Shown piece after piece: positions 2,104-14,813 of a stretch of 64,000 nucleotides of DNA. Numbering within the stretch: the first letter of the stretch is position 1; every line of letters starts with the position of its first letter. Made by a program: the position numbers and the translations under genes. The stretch lies in sequence record PP620640; one strand, 5' to 3'. Source of the DNA: Escherichia phage fKMPT1. The notes below the pieces were generated by a model. That model had not been told where the DNA came from. It ran no database searches and was given only the letters and a program-made list of their open reading frames with translations.

Positions 2104-2619
2104 TTATTTAACCTCAAAAACTGGTTCAAGAACCAATATAAAGTCTACACAGTCATCTTCTTCATCCAGAATACCATCAAAGTTCTTAGGAACGAAGTCG
2201 AAGAGACTCATCACAAAGCAGTCAGAAGTAACCCTGATAGTTCCTCCGATGTTCTCTACAGTTAACACTGTACGACTTTCTTTTACCTCTCGCAAAAGAT
2301 TACTCACAAAGTCATCTAAGAAGTACTTCATCAGTGATTTAAAGCCTTTAGGGTAATCTGTACCAGAGTATGTTTCAATCTGAGGTACAAGCTTAACATT
2401 TATACTAGTCTTTGTTAAGAATGTGTTAGAGAACATACTATCAGGTAACTTACAAACAATCTTTCCAGTACCTTCATGTTCAATCTCAACAAAACCAGCT
2501 TCATCGCCACATGTAACTATTTTAAAAGATGCTTCATTCTCACACTGTGAAGCCATAAACTTTTTAAGCATAATTTTAAGGAAATCTGCATGAGCATCTT
2601 GTAAGTAGACATCAATCAT
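2104..2619 (-). CDS. hypothetical protein
   Basis: 171-aa ORF, tight packing in operon. Confidence 0.5.
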   Translation of the reverse strand: MIDVYLQDAHADFLKIMLKKFMASQCENEASFKIVTCGDEAGFVEIEHEGTGKIVCKLPDSMFSNTFLTKTSINVKLVPQIETYSGTDYPKGFKSLMKYFLDDFVSNLLREVKESRTVLTVENIGGTIRVTSDCFVMSLFDFVPKNFDGILDEEDDCVDFILVLEPVFEVK

Positions 2620-2632
2620 AGTTAATCACCTA

Positions 2633-2992
2633 TTATGGGAACAGACACTTAATGTCATCATTTTTGAAAACGAAGCTTGTGTAATTGTGACCATCAACAT
2701 CCAGCCAAACAGCCTGAACATCTACACCATCAAGATTGTGGTAAATCTCTTTGATGAAGTGGTCTTTTACAATCTGGCTACTAGTTGTTTCCAGCTTAAT
2801 GTTTGAGATTGCTGAACCTACAGCCATATAACCCATGACACGTTTCTTCTCAGTATGCTTAATCTTACCATCTTTATAAGCCATAATGAGATTGGAAAGA
2901 ATCTTCACACCATAATACTTTTCAAGGTGAGTAGGTACACCATAAAAGCCTAATGCGAAGTTTTCAGAGTGGATAATGTTTTCACGTTTCAT
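2633..2992 (-). CDS. hypothetical protein
   Basis: 119-aa ORF. Confidence 0.5.
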   Translation of the reverse strand: MKRENIIHSENFALGFYGVPTHLEKYYGVKILSNLIMAYKDGKIKHTEKKRVMGYMAVGSAISNIKLETTSSQIVKDHFIKEIYHNLDGVDVQAVWLDVDGHNYTSFVFKNDDIKCLFP

Positions 2993-2993
2993 A

Positions 2994-3323
2994 TTAATCT
3001 GCCAGCCTTAAATTAAAATTAACACCAAATTTTTCGCATACTTCCAACATATACTCAAGCGAGACATTACCAGTGAGGTGGATTATGTTGGATACGCGAG
3101 CCTGAGAGATACCACAAATTTTAGCAACTTGCTCTTGAGAAAGACCTCTGGATTTAATCTCTCTCTTAAAACGATGTGCAACGAAGTCTCTCATTTCGTC
3201 TACATCCATTGGACAAATATAACTCTCCATTTCAGCCTCTCTGTCAACCTCCCAATCATCTTGTGGAGCATAAGGGTCAAAAGTCTCATTCATCTTTCTT
3301 CTTCCGTTTGCGTGAAGTGTCAA
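2994..3323 (-). CDS. helix-turn-helix (XRE-like) DNA-binding protein
   Basis: SQEQVAKICGISQARVSNI HTH-like segment. Confidence 0.55.
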   Translation of the reverse strand: MTLHANGRRKMNETFDPYAPQDDWEVDREAEMESYICPMDVDEMRDFVAHRFKREIKSRGLSQEQVAKICGISQARVSNIIHLTGNVSLEYMLEVCEKFGVNFNLRLAD

Positions 3324-3498
3324 TCAATGAATCTATGTTTGTAGCCCTAACCTTTTCACGTTCATCGTTAAGATAATCATCAAGAGCCTTTTCAATCTGT
3401 GAATCATCTTGACAGATAACTGTAAAGACTGTAAAGCCGTCTGTATCGTCAATTATCTTACCATAACCGCTTCTGGGGTGTAACTTTTTAAGAGCCAT
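3286..3498 (-). CDS. hypothetical protein
   Basis: 70-aa ORF with basic C-terminus; overlaps neighbour by 38 nt. Confidence 0.35.
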   Translation of the reverse strand: MALKKLHPRSGYGKIIDDTDGFTVFTVICQDDSQIEKALDDYLNDEREKVRATNIDSLIDTSRKRKKKDE

Positions 3499-3883: not shown

Positions 3884-4468
3884 AATGACCTCAAAGTTAT
3901 ATTAAATTTTGTATTACATTGAGTATAAAAATAAGCTATAACACCTGACTTGTCAACAGATTTTATAGCTTATTTGGCAGATTTTTTATAAGGCTACTGC
4001 CATCCTTCCATACCACACCAAACCACACCTTACCTCACACCACCACACCCAACCGAGCCTGACCTTATTAAAAGACCCTCTTAAAGACCTTTTAAAAAGG
4101 TAAGTCTCATTTTAATGTAGTTGAGACTAACTACCCATACTTTACCGGACCTTACTGGACCATACCTAACACCACCGAACCAAACCATACACCACCGAAC
4201 CGTACCATACCAGACATCACTTAAAAACCCTCTTAGAAAGACTCTTAAGTGATGCTGGTGAGTACCCGTTGGTTTATGCTGCTCAGTATACTCACCAAAT
4301 TTTCTATGTCAACAACTTTTATAAAAAAGTTCTGATAGCTATATGCGTCACGAAACAAAAGATTGTAAACAAGACACCCATTGCAAAAGATGTGTCCAAA
4401 AGCTTACTTGCAACGTATGACAATACAAAGACAACCAGTATAAACAAAATGACTGTACTGAACATAGT

Positions 4469-5569
4469 TTACTCATAATCCCTAATAACTAGCCCAACAG
4501 GAAACTGTAAAGACCCCTTACGAGTCATCTTCTGGAACTGAACCGTTAAAGGTTTCCCGATAAACTCTTCAGGATGCTCAGCAAGATACTGTTTCTTCTC
4601 ATGAGTAGTCTTCCATGAGACATCTACAAAGACGTTAGGAAGCGTCTCTACAACGAACTTGCCATGACCACGTTTATCGGTCTTTACACCAGTTACTTTA
4701 AACTCTTCAGTGTGCATCTTCTTGTGCTTAATCAAGAAGTATGAACGGTGACAACACTCATAGAAGGAGTCTTCAGAAATTGAACGGTACATTGCACCTT
4801 CAAACTTAGCTTCAACCCACTTATCATGGGCTTCATCAAACTCTTCCCAAGAGTTAACACGACGAGATTTAACAGGGACAACTTTACAGCCATCTCTAAA
4901 GTCATTCAATGGTGAAGTCTCAATAATATCTCTACGCTCAGGCCACGTCTTAGTACTGTCACAGATATCATACCAGTAGAACTGGAGTAGATGTCGGTCT
5001 GGATTGTCAGCATTCTTAATCATAGACACAATGTCTTCTAAGTCCCAACCATGAGCATAAATCTCGCCATCAAAGTCTTTAACTTGCGGATGTAATTTAA
5101 GCAACAAAAGTAAATCTGGGATTAGTTCTGCTGGAACGTTGTAAACAGTATTCTCACGAGAATAAGCCGTGAAGCTAACTGAATCAGCATCTCTTGAAAT
5201 TCTACAACGAACACCATCAAGTTTTGGTTGAGCATCAGCAGGGAATATCAAATACTTTGCATGACTAACCTTTGCAGCATCATGCGCAAGCTGTACACCT
5301 ACCTTCTCAGTATTCTGTGCAGACTCTTTTGTGTAAGCATAACCTTTGCGGTCAACCTGCTTTTTATACTTAGCAGCAACTTCAAAGAGAGCTTGCTGTT
5401 CAGCGTTACGCTCATTCTTTTTACCGATGTTTTTAGGTTCTGCTGTATACTCTTCAAACATCATCTTGCCATTCTCTTTACCGTAGGTTGTAATAACTTT
5501 GTCGCCTACAGCAACACATGACCAGACGTTGAAGGAGCCATCTTTATTTTGTTTGTATAGAATTGTCAT
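4469..5569 (-). CDS. ATP-dependent DNA ligase
   Basis: 366 aa; adenylation motif I KLDGVR. Confidence 0.8.
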   Translation of the reverse strand: MTILYKQNKDGSFNVWSCVAVGDKVITTYGKENGKMMFEEYTAEPKNIGKKNERNAEQQALFEVAAKYKKQVDRKGYAYTKESAQNTEKVGVQLAHDAAKVSHAKYLIFPADAQPKLDGVRCRISRDADSVSFTAYSRENTVYNVPAELIPDLLLLLKLHPQVKDFDGEIYAHGWDLEDIVSMIKNADNPDRHLLQFYWYDICDSTKTWPERRDIIETSPLNDFRDGCKVVPVKSRRVNSWEEFDEAHDKWVEAKFEGAMYRSISEDSFYECCHRSYFLIKHKKMHTEEFKVTGVKTDKRGHGKFVVETLPNVFVDVSWKTTHEKKQYLAEHPEEFIGKPLTVQFQKMTRKGSLQFPVGLVIRDYE

Positions 5570-5772
5570 TTTCTCTTACCACCAATTTCTACGTCAATAA
5601 CTTGAATATCACCAGCATCATCAAACTTGTGAATGATGCTTTTCACAGTGTAAGTCCAACCCTCGATGCGAACCAATTCACCTTCTCGTGGAACTATTGG
5701 GTTACGTTGAGCTACCGTTGTAGTGGAGTGAACAACATCATAACAATAGATATAGTTTACTAGGACTTCCAT
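5566..5772 (-). CDS. hypothetical protein
   Basis: 68-aa ORF. Confidence 0.45.
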   Translation of the reverse strand: MEVLVNYIYCYDVVHSTTTVAQRNPIVPREGELVRIEGWTYTVKSIIHKFDDAGDIQVIDVEIGGKRK

Positions 5773-5781
5773 GCCTTTTCC

Positions 5782-6015
5782 TTAAAATGATAAGTCAATA
5801 TTGATACGTTCACCCTTAAGGACTCCTGTACGGTCCCTTGCAATCTTACCGTCAACAATAAGGATATGCGCAGACCTTAAAGATTCACTATTAAAACCTT
5901 TTACGAACTTACTAGGCATAACTACAATAAGCATCTCTTGAATCAACTCTGGAGTGTAGCAGTTGTCGTGAAGTTGCTGAATAACGTCTGCAAGTGTCAT
6001 TTTTGATGTCTCCAA
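5782..6015 (-). CDS. small protein, paralog of 6203-6421
   Basis: 77 aa; shares MTL..E..QL...Y...I..M.IV......K.N.E.LR...I.I..GKIA.D.TG.LKGER.NI with 6203-6421. Confidence 0.5.
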   Translation of the reverse strand: METSKMTLADVIQQLHDNCYTPELIQEMLIVVMPSKFVKGFNSESLRSAHILIVDGKIARDRTGVLKGERINIDLSF

Positions 6016-6206
6016 TACTCAATGTCAATAAGTTCTTGTGCAATGCTTTTCAGATTACCTTTCAAGAAAACCTTCTCAGAATCTGAAAGAGATGAATTGT
6101 CAATTAACCTGTTCATTCTCTCAAACAACTTCTGCTTACGATTCTTGATAGTTTCCTTTGAAGCACCTTTCATCATCGCTGCATGGGTTCTTCCACGGTG
6201 GCTCAT
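5997..6206 (-). CDS. hypothetical basic protein
   Basis: 69-aa ORF between the two paralogs. Confidence 0.45.
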   Translation of the reverse strand: MSHRGRTHAAMMKGASKETIKNRKQKLFERMNRLIDNSSLSDSEKVFLKGNLKSIAQELIDIEYWRHQK

Positions 6207-6421
6207 AGTAAAGTCTCAATGTTTACACGCTCACCTTTTAAGTAGCCTGTCTTGTCTTTTGCGATTTTGCCTCCAGCAATAAAGATATCAACTCTACGTA
6301 GAACTTCAGGGTTTACCTTCAAATTCCTACAGCTACTGCAAAGAACAATAAACATCCCTTCAATCTCTTTTTGAGAGTAACCTGCACATTGCAACTGAAC
6401 TTCAATCTCTGAAAGCGTCAT
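6203..6421 (-). CDS. small protein, paralog of 5782-6015
   Basis: 72 aa; see paralog. Confidence 0.5.
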   Translation of the reverse strand: MTLSEIEVQLQCAGYSQKEIEGMFIVLCSSCRNLKVNPEVLRRVDIFIAGGKIAKDKTGYLKGERVNIETLL

Positions 6422-6472
6422 GTGACCTCCTATATAAGATATTGTATATGGTACTCTTCCATGAGCACCTTG

Positions 6473-6976
6473 TCAAGATAGTTTTGCAAACTCTCCGTGG
6501 AGTTTTATAGCAGCTTCACAGTAAGCTTTATGGGCTTCTTCAGGTGTATCAAATAGACCAAGTGATGACCTTTTACCTCTGCATGTTATAGTCGCCCTCC
6601 ACTTATTGCAGTCTTTAAAGTAATGAACACCCTTGTAACCTGATTTGTTAGTCGTCTGCTTTACCCTGTTTTGAGCGTTTCCATATTTATCGGTCTCCCT
6701 AAGATTAGAAATGTGATTATTACTCCTGTTGCCATCAATGTGGTCTATCATCTTAGTAGGTTTGTAACCATGCTCAAACCACCAAACAAGGTGATGCACT
6801 TTTATTACAACATCTTTGAATTTAAGCACTTTGTAACCATAAGCATCACTTCCTCCGGCAACCTGACCAGCTTTAGCTTGTCTATTCCTATCATACCTGT
6901 TGTAGAAGACCCCTTTATCGGGGTCGTAAATAAAGTTGTCCTTGTAATCTTGAAGTGTTAGTGAACGGCGTACCAT
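6473..6976 (-). CDS. HNH homing endonuclease with AP2-like DNA-binding domain
   Basis: HLVWWFEHGY...DHIDGNRSNNHISNLRE HNH motif plus GYKGVHYFKDCNKWRA AP2-like segment; overlaps 3' end of the polymerase gene. Confidence 0.8.
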   Translation of the reverse strand: MVRRSLTLQDYKDNFIYDPDKGVFYNRYDRNRQAKAGQVAGGSDAYGYKVLKFKDVVIKVHHLVWWFEHGYKPTKMIDHIDGNRSNNHISNLRETDKYGNAQNRVKQTTNKSGYKGVHYFKDCNKWRATITCRGKRSSLGLFDTPEEAHKAYCEAAIKLHGEFAKLS

Positions 6977-7509
6977 GTTTTACCTACCTTACCAGTACCC
7001 GTGACAAGTGTCTTACTCTTTAATCCAAGATTTTTTGATGCTTGACCATACATTCTATCAATAATCTCCTTAACATCTGGTACAGCTTTTGTTGGAACCT
7101 CTAAAGAAACTTCGTCGTGGTAACTACAGACCCATCTAGCACCAATAGCTGGTTTCCTACCATTTAGAACTGTAAGTTTTCGCTCTGTTAACTCTCTATT
7201 AGCCAAGTTAATCCCCTCATTCTGTACCTGCGCCTCACTACCCATGAGTGTGAAATTCAATAACTTATGTGGAGATTTACACCATAACCACGCTCCAGCG
7301 ACTTTGATATAACCACCTTTGGCAATTGCAGAAGTTTTTCCAAAAACCTCTTCAAGTGCTTTCTTAGTTGCTTTGAAGTCTTCCTCTAACCTATCAAGCA
7401 GCTTTTTAATCTTAGGTAGACGTACAAAGTAAGTTTGTTTAGTCAATGCACCTTCTTCCGTAGATGATGCCTTGATAGTTTTTGCAAACTTCTCGTCTCC
7501 AGCACCGAA
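6958..7509 (-). CDS. DNA polymerase (family A), exon 2 / C-terminal segment
   Basis: Begins FGAGDEK (motif B continuation, compare T7 YGAGDEK), contains motif C YHDEV; track ORF starts at a TTG so no obvious independent start. Confidence 0.8.
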   Translation of the reverse strand, partial: FGAGDEKFAKTIKASSTEEGALTKQTYFVRLPKIKKLLDRLEEDFKATKKALEEVFGKTSAIAKGGYIKVAGAWLWCKSPHKLLNFTLMGSEAQVQNEGINLANRELTERKLTVLNGRKPAIGARWVCSYHDEVSLEVPTKAVPDVKEIIDRMYGQASKNLGLKSKTLVTGTGKVGKTWYAVH

Positions 7510-7785
7510 CAATACATCTGGTCAATACACTCGCAAGGTGTACCAGTTCTCTTATGAACTTCTCCGCATTTCTACGGAGTGTCGGACTATATCACGTAGC
7601 AGGATGCTACCGTTGCACTTGGGAATGGTCATTAGCTTACCACCCTACTCTACTCAGTTCATACGTTAAGTATGCTTTTCGATAGTCTCTGAACGTTCCT
7701 CTCAAGAGGCTTCGCTGCTGATTACCGTATCTTCTCAGACTTAGGCTTCCAGCAATTCACAACGTTTTACATGCGCCACTGACGC
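7510..7785 (-). ncRNA. putative group I intron interrupting DNA polymerase motif B
   Basis: 276-nt ORF-less insertion between ...KNGIY and FGAGDEK...; upstream exon ends in U, intron ends in G; GUAAA near intron 5' end could pair with exon UUUAU (P1). Confidence 0.45.
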
Positions 7786-9924
7786 ATAAATGCCATTTTT
7801 GGCTTTCTTACGACCTTTTGTAATCTCGTGGAGAAGTTCCTCATCCTGTGTATACCTACAACGAACAATATCTTCTTCCTTGTTCAGACCAAAGTAAATA
7901 CTGTTCAGTGTATGTGCATCAGTACCTGTGTATACTTCATAGAGGTCATTCTCAGCATCATAACGAAGGTACTTGTCAGTTTCTGGATTGAGGTACTTAT
8001 CAAGATGCTTGCAATAGTATCTTCCATCCTCTTGCTTGGTAAATTCTACTGACTCTTTACCTTGTGTTACCGCTTTAGTGAACTCTTCATCACCCATAAA
8101 GTTACAAAGAAGAACTAGCTGTGCTGAGTTTTGGTCTACAGAGATGATATCTGTCCCCTCTTCACAAGTCCACACCTCCCTCATAGGTGCTCCATAGACA
8201 GCAGCACCAGACGGTACGTTTACAATACCATATTGTGTCATACGTCCAGTTGAAGTACCAAATACCATTGCACCAGCACTAAGGCGACCATCAGGACGAA
8301 TCTGGTTCAACCAACCTTTTTCATCATCCTTTGAGTTCTCAATAGTTCTGCGTCGGTGCATCAAAGTATAGTACTTAGCAATCTTCTGTCCAAGCTCACC
8401 TTCAATCGTATCATAAGATGATTCAGTAAGTTTTGGTGAAGTACGGATTAAGCAAGGTTCAAGCAAATCTGTGTATTTCTTCACAGACCAGTTATGTTCA
8501 ATGTACTGGACACCTTCATGTTCAACATAACTCAAACCACACCTTTCAACCATCTCATCCCACTTAGGATGCTTTGTAATCATCTTTTTGTTGTCTTTGA
8601 AACGACAAACTTTGACAGGACGACCATCTGAGTCTTTCTTGTAGTTCCAGTCATCTGGAATCCAACCAACTGATTTCAAATAGTCTTTCACAACTGCTAC
8701 CTGAGTCATACGAGAAACTTCGAACTCAATTGGTGTATATGGTGCATCAATCAAACCTGTGTAGCGACTTGACTCAAGCTCAAAGTGGTTAACAACATGG
8801 CTGTTATAGTACTTCACAGTTTTAACTGTTTTTACTGGCTTCCAATCTTTGCACTTCTTACCAATCTTTGCATTCAACTCATTGCAAATTGCACGAGCAT
8901 CCTTCATTGCTACAAAACCTTCCTTGTACTCTTCACCAGTTACAGAGTTGGTTGGTGTATAGCAATTCCGCTTTTCAATGTTAAAAATCTTTGTAGTTGG
9001 CTTACCAAATGGCTTGATTTCATATGTCTGCATCTCACCGTTACGTACCTGCTGACGATACTTTGTCTTAGGGTACTTGGTAATTCTCTTCAGTCCATCT
9101 GCGTGACCAAATGCTTCAACATACTCATTCCAAGCTTTTGCAAACTCTTCTCCAGTGACTTTAACTTTGGTCTTGATAGTTGGAGGAAGATGTGGTTCAA
9201 CTTCTGAAGCAAGCTCATTAGTCAACTTGTCAAGTTCCTTTACATGGAACTCCATAAGCTCTTTATCAGCTTTCCAACCATTGATAGCTTGTTGACTCAT
9301 CCAGAAAGATGTTTCTTTAGCTCGCATGTAGGTTTCATAAGTATCTACGCCACACTTCTTCAGCTTGAGATATTCATTATCCAGTGCACGTTTAGTTTTG
9401 GCGTTAATACGGATATCTTCTACAACACGAGTGAAGATTTCTGCATTCCACACACCCCAATGTTCAATCTCTGGTTTACGTACACCGACACGAGCACCCC
9501 ATGCAGCCAAGCCATGAGCACCTTTATAGCCTTTTGGAGTTGGTCTATCCATCCATTGAACACGAGATTGGATAAGAGAATCCTGAAAGAAATTACTCCA
9601 CGGCTTACACTTTGGATTATCAAAGTTCCACAAATCAGGTGCAATGTGATTGAAAACCCACCAGTCATACCCCAGACCATTATGGATGCAAAGTCGTTTT
9701 GCCTTTAACGCAAACTCAACACCTTCACGCAAGCCACCCTTAATGTACTTGGTATACTTGTGACCGAGGATAGGCTCATCTGTAAAGACCCATACAGGTG
9801 GCTCTTCATCGTCAGATTTATAGTCTGCGAAAGCCATTACGTGTACTTTAGTGAACTCAAGGAGTAAACCATCAGTTTCTGTATCGCCAACTAAATGTAA
9901 GTTTTTAAAATCTACGTTTTCCAT
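7786..9924 (-). CDS. DNA polymerase (family A) with 3'-5' exonuclease domain, exon 1
   Basis: DTETDG exo motif; motif A VDQNSAQLVLL; start taken at MENVDF with upstream GGAG RBS; frame runs 14 codons into insertion before stop at 7741. Confidence 0.85.
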
Positions 9925-10181
9925 TTTTACTCCCTCTAAAATCATTAACCACATACATTACTGCAAAAAATTATAAAAAGCAAGTTGACAATGTACTTGA
10001 CAAGGTGTTAATCTTTGCGAAGTGGGTTTTTACTTAAAAGGTTACTTAACAGTTTAACTATACAGATACTTTAAAACTCTTAAAAGATTATTTAATAGTT
10101 TTTAAAAAGCTTTAAAGTATAACGTATAGAATACGTTAAGATAAAAGATTAAAACTTAATAGTTACTTAAAAGAGGCTTAC

Positions 10182-14410: not shown

Positions 14411-14663
14411 TAGTTATAAAAGAGAGGGGTTTATACCCTTCTTTGAAGAAAAAAGTTTAAATAAATTTCAGGAAGAGTGTTTGACAAAGGTTGATAGGTT
14501 CTATAGAATGCTCTACATGAAATGTGATGGAGGAGTTGAGGTTGAACAAAAGTCCCATCACAGTATAATAACAGTCACTATTACTATACCTCAACATAAT
14601 ATTGGTTGGCTGTTTATAATTAAAGAAAATGTGTTTGAATATCAAGTATATCGGAGAATATCA

Positions 14664-14813
14664 TGAAACACTCTAAAGCATTTGAAAAAGTTTTTGGGGA
14701 TTCCTTAAAAGCCACTGCTGGTAAACCAGCAAAATACTATGAAGAGAAGCGTGTAAGAACTGGAAAAACTGCACGTAAAGCAGCTTCTAAAGATAAGCAC
14801 AACTTCCAGTAAT
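14664..14813 (+). CDS. hypothetical small basic protein
   Basis: 49-aa ORF with GGAGA RBS, not in six-frame track. Confidence 0.3.

What the first reader, a model, noticed from the sequence alone, without database searches (positions are those of the whole stretch)
5782..6421. Pair of paralogous about 75-aa proteins downstream of polymerase and HNH endonuclease
The ORFs 5782-6015 and 6203-6421 are clearly homologous, separated by a basic 69-aa ORF. A local duplication of a small gene with conserved GKIAKDKTGYLKGERVNIE core next to a homing endonuclease may be an interacting or inhibitor pair.
Basis: seen in the sequence. Interest (0 to 1): 0.35.

Follow-up and report, generated by a model that had tools for sequence, protein, structure and literature searches.

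The report
Two old paralogues of a phage ORFan
The two small genes are real but anciently diverged copies of a small protein family found only in Felix O1-like phages; its function is unknown, its one tested orthologue is dispensable in the laboratory, and the pairing is ordinary phage mosaicism with no link to the neighbouring homing endonuclease.

Summary
On the minus strand of this Salmonella phage fBSPA4 window, gene B (6203-6421) and gene A (5782-6000) encode 72-aa proteins that are 45% identical (E=7e-18). Both match phrog_4230. They flank a basic 69-aa helical protein (5997-6206).

- **Not a recent local duplication.** Nucleotide identity is 55-60% and dS is saturated.
- **Copies occur separately.** About 72% of 254 related phage records carry only A. 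About 14% carry only an upstream B-type or C-type copy, and about 13% carry both.
- **No link to the HNH gene.** Its presence varies independently of B.

All three genes are under purifying selection (dN/dS 0.07-0.13). They overlap by ATGA and sit in a conserved sigma70-type promoter-driven operon that ends in DNA ligase. The family is tiny, with 11 cluster representatives among 1.84 billion. It has no Pfam, PDB or fold match, although the AF2 model is confident (pLDDT 90).

Published knockout data for phage Bas63 score the A orthologue and the basic protein as non-essential.

Best reading: accessory early proteins of unknown biochemistry, present as two old allelic types reassorted by recombination. 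Interest is low.

The parts
6203..6421 (-). Gene B: upstream paralogue, 72 aa, phrog_4230 (B clade)
   Evidence: ORF. phrog_4230 E=7e-37. dN/dS 0.07-0.17 among orthologues. AF2 pLDDT 90.3. GenBank ASP4_00041, hypothetical protein.
5997..6206 (-). Basic 69-aa protein (phrog_5180), pI 10.2, predicted all-helical. Overlaps B and A by ATGA at both ends.
   Evidence: Helices seen in the fusion model. dN/dS median 0.07. 73-98% identity in all 42 database homologues.
5782..6000 (-). Gene A: downstream paralogue, 72 aa from the ATG at 6000 (maximal ORF reaches the TTG at 6015), phrog_4230 (A clade)
   Evidence: phrog_4230 E=5e-42. Median dN/dS 0.13 over 77 pairs. 93% identical over 70 aa (tblastn, locus L005) to a protein whose sequence equals Bas63 g44.
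6448..6476 (-). Sigma70-type promoter TTGACA-17-TACCAT that would drive the small-gene/ligase operon. The HNH stop codon TGA lies inside the -35 hexamer.
   Evidence: Scan hit with 10/12 matches. The same promoter and RBS are conserved upstream of the first small gene in eight relatives, whichever gene comes first.
6426..6430 (-). Shine-Dalgarno GGAGG, ending 4 nt before the ATG of B
   Evidence: Read from the sequence. Conserved in relatives.
5566..5772 (-). 68-aa protein (phrog_4427), same operon. Overlaps the ligase start by ATGA.
4469..5569 (-). ATP-dependent DNA ligase, last gene of the operon
6473..6976 (-). Free-standing HNH_3+AP2 endonuclease (context only, not part of the family's system)
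   Evidence: Pfam HNH_3 3.7e-12 and AP2 1.5e-10. Present or absent independently of B.

Best explanation
SHOWN. A and B are two anciently diverged members of a very small protein family (phrog_4230) that is restricted to Felix O1-like (Ounavirinae-type) phages. Every member whose genomic position was examined lies downstream of the DNA polymerase gene, and upstream of DNA ligase wherever the contig reaches that far.

In this phage the genes form one translationally coupled string: B, then the basic 69-aa protein, then A, then a 68-aa protein, then ligase. A conserved sigma70-type promoter precedes the string, which would make them early or middle genes read by host RNA polymerase.

The copies behave like two old allelic types of one cassette. 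Related phages carry A only, B only, a third A-like type in B's slot, or both. The flanks stay 92-98% identical while the family gene drops to 58%.

INFERRED (likely). The two-copy state arose by recombination among co-infecting relatives at the conserved promoter/RBS and the conserved basic-protein gene. It did not arise by duplication in place.

INFERRED (mechanism, weak). The proteins are dispensable accessory factors. Each is a compact alpha/beta domain whose invariant hairpin, GK-I-x-K-D-x-T-G-x-L-K-G-E, is the likely binding surface. They would bind a host or phage protein to tune infection in particular hosts, as a host-takeover or counter-defence factor. A and B would be two specificity variants. 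The basic helical protein is co-expressed with them and may or may not be a partner.
For: - **Homology and family:**
- **Real genes under purifying selection:** dN/dS is 0.13 for A, 0.11 for B and 0.07 for the basic protein.
- **Narrow distribution:** 11 cluster representatives among 1.84e9. All tblastn hits are Felix O1-like records.
- **Fixed position after pol:** this holds even in distant relatives that lack the basic protein.
- **ATGA overlaps:** at 6203-6206, 5997-6000 and 5566-5569.
- **Conserved promoter and RBS:**
- **Old divergence:** 55-60% nucleotide identity, dS 1.28.
- **Phylogeny:** A groups with Michonne's upstream copy at 98% bootstrap.
- **Island of divergence, Moogle vs Michonne:** pol 3' end 95.5%, intergenic region 92%, family gene 58%, basic-protein gene 96.7%.
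- **Architecture counts:** A-type in 217 of 254 records, no A-type in 35, both in about 34.
- **B+69+A occurs on two different pol/HNH backgrounds:** the window and L007.
- **Dispensability:** PhageMaP knockouts in Bas63 (bioRxiv 10.1101/2024.10.10.617714). g44 (the A orthologue) scores +0.04 to +0.33 and g45 (the basic protein) +0.50 to +0.85. Polymerase scores -0.7 to -2.6. The authors call fitness <0 essential.
- **Defence interplay in the same cluster:** Bas63 g40, in this small-gene cluster, is a validated trigger of the hhe defence system.
Against: - No biochemical or genetic evidence for any target.
- No match to any Pfam, NCBIfam or PADLOC family or to any solved structure.
- g44 and g45 fitness did not change in the two stored Bas63 defence-strain sheets I read, nor between two lab hosts. 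The paper does not list them among its validated counters or triggers.
- The invariant position between pol and ligase, and the translational coupling, would equally fit a non-essential replication or repair helper.
- The basic protein does not co-vary with the family type: Moogle and Michonne have zero amino-acid differences there despite 42% identity in the neighbouring gene. This argues against a type-specific complex with it.
- The AF2 fusion of B with the basic protein was not confident: pTM 0.41 from a two-row alignment.
Confidence: 0.45

Rival explanations
1. Non-essential accessory subunits of the phage replication/repair machinery, for example helpers of the Pol A-type polymerase or of the minimal ATP-dependent ligase. 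They would be made in fixed ratio with ligase through translational coupling.
For: A family member follows the pol gene and precedes ligase wherever the contig reaches that far. This includes a minimal arrangement of pol, a 75-aa protein, the family member and ligase, with the family stop overlapping the ligase start. There are ATGA overlaps down to ligase. Purifying selection is strong. At least one copy is present in 254 of about 259 records that match this region.
Confidence: 0.25
2. One reading: a recent local tandem duplication next to a homing endonuclease, producing an interacting or inhibitor pair functionally tied to the HNH gene.
For: The two genes are homologous, 200 bp apart, and 50 bp downstream of an HNH gene. 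Homing-endonuclease activity could in principle co-convert neighbouring markers.
Against: dS is saturated and nucleotide identity is 55-60%. A is closer to Michonne's upstream gene than to B. Single-copy genomes predominate. HNH presence and type vary independently of B, and both A-only and B-carrying loci occur in phages without HNH. The family is present in distant relatives with no HNH.
Confidence: 0.04
3. Small DNA-binding regulators that control timing of phage transcription. The N-terminal helix-turn-helix-like segment would contact DNA, with the basic protein as co-factor.
For: The N-terminus is predicted as helix, a GY turn, then a short helix. The neighbouring protein is basic (pI 10.2). 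The genes are placed as if early, behind a sigma70-type promoter. There is a very weak PHROG hit to a transcriptional repressor family for one distant member (E=0.33).
Against: There is no significant match to any HTH family by sequence or fold. The second helix is only about 5 residues. A and B themselves are near neutral, with pI 6.0 and 7.7. They are non-essential in Bas63.
Confidence: 0.1
4. The ORFs are not real genes: chance ORFs or decaying pseudogene remnants.
For: They are short, have no known domain and are annotated only as hypothetical.
Against: dN/dS is about 0.1 over dozens of orthologue pairs. Length and start are conserved. An RBS and coupled starts are present. The AF2 fold is confident at pLDDT 90.
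Confidence: 0.01

Closest known systems
PHROG family phrog_4230 (unknown function); Felix O1 ORF93 / Felix01p173, JH2 gp060 and gp062, Bas63 g44
   Same: Both window proteins match the profile over their full length (E=5e-42 and 7e-37). They have the same length, the same position after pol and the same invariant hairpin motif.
   Different: Nothing differs in kind. What is added here is that the family splits into two deep clades (A/C and B), and that about 13% of the related phage records carry one of each, flanking the basic protein.
Small host-directed proteins embedded in the T7 DNA-metabolism gene cluster (gp5.5, gp5.7, gp5.9, downstream of the DNA polymerase gene). From my own knowledge, not tested here.
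   Same: Small, non-essential, early/middle-expressed proteins located next to a Pol A-type polymerase gene. The analogy concerns genomic placement and dispensability only.
   Different: No sequence or fold similarity was detected to any solved structure. No target is known. A and B are near neutral rather than acidic DNA mimics.
phiEco32 gp100 (UniProt B0FIR2, 73 aa, unknown function)
   Same: It is the best non-family structural match in BFVD (Foldseek prob 0.97, TM 0.61). It is also the top hit of the family HMM among phiEco32 ORFs (E=0.008). The motif HYLIIDGVLVKSRHG aligns to aHILIvDGKIaKDRTG.
   Different: hhalign probability is only 46% and PHROG E is 0.067. The genomic context differs: it sits among small early genes next to a D5-like regulator, not next to pol. 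Homology is not established.

Membership tests
phrog_4230 (Ounavirinae small protein of unknown function) | Full-length match to the family profile | tested here: met
   A: E=5e-42 over residues 1-70 of 72. B: E=7e-37 over residues 1-72 of 72.
phrog_4230 (Ounavirinae small protein of unknown function) | Conserved residues M1, Q9, L10, Y15, I20, I46, L61, G63 and the G-K-I-x-K-D-x-T-G-x-L-K-G-E hairpin | tested here: met
   A 35-sequence alignment lists the invariant and near-invariant columns. Both window proteins carry them.
phrog_4230 (Ounavirinae small protein of unknown function) | Genomic position downstream of the Pol A gene, and upstream of DNA ligase where the contig extends that far | tested here: met
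   The window, 22 related loci and four distant metagenomic loci. L025 is too short to show a ligase.
Toxin-antitoxin or inhibitor/target gene pair | The two partners co-occur obligatorily and are usually non-homologous | tested here: not met
   A and B are homologous. About 85% of related records carry only one type.
Homing-endonuclease cassette (endonuclease plus associated cargo or immunity gene) | Co-distribution of the cargo gene with the endonuclease gene | tested here: not met
   HNH+/B+ (window, Sf13), HNH+/B- (Felix O1, L005, L013, L018), HNH-/B+ (L007, Moogle) and HNH-/B- (L008, L009, L011, L014) all occur.
Recent tandem gene duplication | High nucleotide identity or low dS between copies, with the copies being each other's closest relatives | tested here: not met
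   55-60% nucleotide identity and dS 1.28. A is sister to Michonne's upstream copy at 98% bootstrap.
Helix-turn-helix / winged-helix DNA-binding proteins | Sequence or fold match to an HTH family | tested here: not met
Known defence or defence-related protein families (PADLOC) | Profile match | tested here: not met
   No hit for A or B. There is a weak hit, probably by chance, for the basic protein (E=0.0028, 14 bits). No anti-defence protein library was available.
Essential phage replication proteins | Loss of the gene abolishes phage growth | tested here: not met
   Published Bas63 knockout fitness is positive for g44 (A orthologue) and g45 and negative for pol, primase/helicase and ligase. 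The B type has not been tested in any phage.

The most novel reading that the evidence does not exclude
A and B are two specificity variants of a new-fold, phage-encoded inhibitor of a host factor or defence sensor, kept as ancient alleles by balancing or arms-race selection. Phages that carry both, like this one, thereby cover two host variants. The sharp island of divergence between near-identical flanks, and the presence of a validated defence trigger (Bas63 g40) in the same small-gene cluster, would then mark the pol-ligase interval of Ounavirinae as a counter-defence hotspot.
Probability: 0.18. Interest if true: 0.5.

Novelty: new member of a known kind. Interest (0 to 1): 0.2.

Why it matters
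The finding has modest value.

It shows that a catalogued but uncharacterised ORFan family (phrog_4230) has two deep allelic classes with a confidently predicted fold that matches no solved structure. It also shows that the pol-ligase interval of Felix O1-like phages is a recombination-driven mosaic of small early genes. These phages are widely used for Salmonella typing and biocontrol.

If the family proves to be a host-specificity or counter-defence factor, the A/B polymorphism would be a ready-made natural experiment. As it stands, it is an ordinary case of phage small-gene mosaicism, and the suggested link to the homing endonuclease does not hold.

Tried and rejected
**Searches that found nothing relevant**
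- Pfam, NCBIfam and PADLOC scans of A, B, the basic protein and the 68-aa protein.
- Relaxed PHROG scan, E up to 10, including distant members.
- Profile search of PDB sequences. Only sub-threshold similarity of the N-terminal 'QLxxaGYsxxEI' segment to DotG/IcmE repeats (E=0.15), which I treat as chance.
- Foldseek against PDB: nothing.
- Foldseek against BFVD: only the family itself plus weak phiEco32 and EP335 hits.
- Literature searches on Felix O1 early genes, CRISPRi and RNA-seq. The Felix O1 genome paper and the Felixounavirus comparative paper do not discuss these genes.

- The afdb50 library was not available.

**Inconclusive or contradicted**
- A two-row fusion alignment built from window sequences only ran, but gave pTM 0.41 and pLDDT 68.8, which is inconclusive.
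- I tested whether the window's basic-protein gene is a chimera marking a recent crossover with a Mooglevirus-type parent. It is Felix-type throughout: 4 differences from Felix O1 against 27 from Sf13.
- No terminator-like site lies between the promoter at 6476 and the ligase start.

Full report
**Source and layout.** The window is 100% identical over the queried 3.2-kb stretch (4400-7600) to Salmonella phage fBSPA4 (OR711204), a Felix O1-like myovirus. All genes in this stretch are on the minus strand. In the direction of transcription they are:
- DNA polymerase, in two ORFs (7741-9954 and 6958-7512)
- an HNH_3+AP2 endonuclease (6473-6976)
- gene B (6203-6421, 72 aa)
- a basic 69-aa ORF (5997-6206)
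- gene A (5782-6000 from the ATG; the maximal ORF reaches a TTG at 6015)
- a 68-aa ORF (5566-5772)
- DNA ligase (4469-5569)

**Check of the observation.** A and B align without gaps over 69 residues at 45% identity, E=7e-18. Both match phrog_4230 end to end, at E=5e-42 and 7e-37. A family HMM finds only these two copies in the 64-kb window. The quoted core is the conserved C-terminal hairpin of B. The intervening protein has pI 10.2. A most likely starts at the ATG at 6000. That ATG overlaps the preceding stop as ATGA and restores the family's invariant M-T-L N-terminus.

**Are they real genes?** Yes. Nei-Gojobori dN/dS has a median of 0.13 for A (77 pairs), 0.11 for B and 0.07 for the basic protein. 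AlphaFold2 with a 35-sequence alignment gives a confident compact alpha/beta model for B. Its pLDDT is 90.3 and pTM 0.77, with two N-terminal helices, a strand, a helix, a beta-hairpin and a short C-terminal helix.

**Operon anatomy.**
- B and the basic gene, the basic gene and A, and the 68-aa gene and ligase each overlap by ATGA.
- The 51-nt spacer upstream of B holds TTGACA-17-TACCAT and a GGAGG Shine-Dalgarno.
- The same promoter and RBS lie upstream of the first small gene in eight relatives, whether that gene is B or the basic gene. A distant relative has TTGACA followed at 16-17 nt by TATAAT.
- The presence or absence of B is therefore exact, running from its ATG to the ATGA junction.
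- No terminator-like site lies between this promoter and ligase.

I infer a host-RNA-polymerase-driven early or middle operon that ends in ligase. This is not shown experimentally.

**Distribution.** The family is tiny. An exhaustive profile search of 1.84 billion cluster representatives returns 11. All tblastn hits in 50,697 phage records are Felix O1-like genomes.
- Of 254 records with a family member, 217 have an A-type copy (>=80% identity).
- 35 have no A-type copy.
- 34 have two copies.

Inspection of 22 related loci shows four arrangements:
- pol-(HNH)-basic-A: Felix O1 and most others
- pol-(HNH)-B-basic-other gene: Moogle, Sf13
- pol-HNH-C-basic-other gene: Michonne, where C is 54% identical to A and 42% to B
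- pol-(HNH)-B-basic-A: the window and UAB_Phi87

More distant metagenomic relatives have a single family gene after pol and no basic protein. One shows pol, a 75-aa protein, the family member and ligase.

**Origin of the pair.**
- A and B share 55-60% nucleotide identity and dS is saturated at 1.28.
- In an NJ tree, A groups with Michonne's upstream copy C at 98% bootstrap, apart from the B clade. Deeper nodes are unresolved.
- Moogle and Michonne are 95.5% identical in the pol 3' end, 92% in the promoter spacer and 96.7% in the basic-protein gene (zero amino-acid changes). They are only 58% identical in the family gene between those flanks.
- The two-copy arrangement occurs on two different backgrounds. 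The window has HNH type 1 and its pol C-terminal allele. L007 has no HNH and a 75%-identical pol C-terminus.
- The window's basic-protein gene is Felix-type throughout, so there is no trace of a recent crossover with a Sf13-like parent.

Together these point to old allelic types reassorted by recombination at conserved flanks, not to duplication in place. The exact history (ancestral pair with losses, or later combination) is not resolved.

**Relation to the endonuclease.** All four combinations of HNH and B presence occur, at least three HNH types occupy the site, and A-only as well as B-carrying loci occur in phages without HNH. The suggested functional link is not supported.

Direct genetic evidence exists for an orthologue. 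In the PhageMaP knockout screen of Felixounavirus Bas63 (bioRxiv 10.1101/2024.10.10.617714; genome MZ501086), g44 is an A-type protein and g45 is the basic protein. The authors call fitness <0 essential.

| Gene | Fitness range | Sheets read |
|---|---|---|
| g44 (A orthologue) | +0.04 to +0.33 | S17, MG1655, two defence strains |
| g45 (basic protein) | +0.50 to +0.85 | same |
| polymerase | -0.7 to -2.6 | same |
| ligase | mostly negative | same |

Both small genes are therefore dispensable in the laboratory. Neither is mentioned among the validated counters or triggers, and neither shifted in the two defence sheets read. In the same cluster, Bas63 g40 is a Zn-ribbon protein absent from this position in the window, and it is a validated trigger of the hhe defence system.

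It gave pTM 0.41, which is inconclusive. It predicts the basic protein as three helices. The lack of co-variation between the basic protein and the family type argues against a type-specific complex.

**Conclusion.** The pair is real, and I regard that as ordinary. It consists of two ancient paralogues, or alleles, of an Ounavirinae-restricted ORFan family in a mosaic early operon. My preferred mechanism is a dispensable accessory factor that binds a host or phage protein through the invariant hairpin, with A and B as specificity variants. I hold this with modest confidence. A non-essential replication or ligation helper is the main rival. The identity and evolutionary statements are well supported. 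The biochemical role is inference only.

Noticed in passing
window 7515-7781 (- strand); Rfam hit 7562-7844: The DNA polymerase gene is interrupted by an ORF-less group I intron (Rfam RF00028, 59.9 bits against gathering score 50, E=4.9e-14). Removing 267 nt joins the two pol ORFs in frame and restores KNGIYALLFGAGDEK exactly as in the uninterrupted Felix O1 polymerase. GenBank annotates two separate 'putative DNA polymerase' CDSs. The Felix O1 genome paper reports no introns in that phage. The same sequence (>=95% identity in 94 records) occurs in 96 phage records.
   Followed up: partly
L006 about 2067-2882 and L011 about 2566-3384: Two related phages have an insertion of about 800 nt at the same place in pol. 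Its last 190 nt match the window's intron at 97%. This is possibly the same intron carrying an ORF such as a homing endonuclease; I did not examine it.
   Followed up: no
window 6471-6476 and 6958-7512; loci L002, L005, L013, L018 versus the others: The TGA stop codon of the HNH gene lies inside the -35 hexamer TTGACA of the downstream promoter. The C-terminal 184 aa of pol are 98-100% identical to the window only in phages that carry the same HNH type, and 75-78% identical in all others. The upstream pol segment stays at 88-99%. This linkage is what co-conversion or target-site divergence around a free-standing homing endonuclease would produce.
   Followed up: partly
window 5566-5772 / 4469-5569 junction; L029 (Bas63) 8883-9101: The window lacks the 72-aa Zn-ribbon gene (Felix O1 ORF89, Bas63 g40) that sits just before ligase in many relatives. 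Bas63 g40 is reported as a trigger of the hhe defence system and scores strongly negative in fitness.
   Followed up: partly
L028 (phiEco32) 14520-14741: phiEco32 gp100 (73 aa, unknown function) may be a distant relative of the family. It is the top BFVD fold match outside the family and the top HMM hit within the phiEco32 genome, with a shared 'ILIvDG..vK.r.G' motif.
   Followed up: partly
phage database records GU169904 (Staphylococcus phage SA1), MG065668 (Campylobacter phage A126): Records labelled as Staphylococcus and Campylobacter phages contain a Felix O1-like stretch carrying this family. The SA1 record matches this pol-ligase region at about 93% identity; for A126 only a family-protein hit (about 42% identity to B) was seen. 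This probably reflects contamination, chimeric assembly or mislabelling rather than true host range.
   Followed up: no
window 6203-6421, N-terminal residues 8-24 of B: The N-terminal 'vQLqcaGYsqeeIe' segment weakly resembles the repeated 'QLKaAGYtakELk' units of Legionella DotG/IcmE (E=0.15). I judge this a chance similarity between short helix-GY-helix motifs.
   Followed up: no
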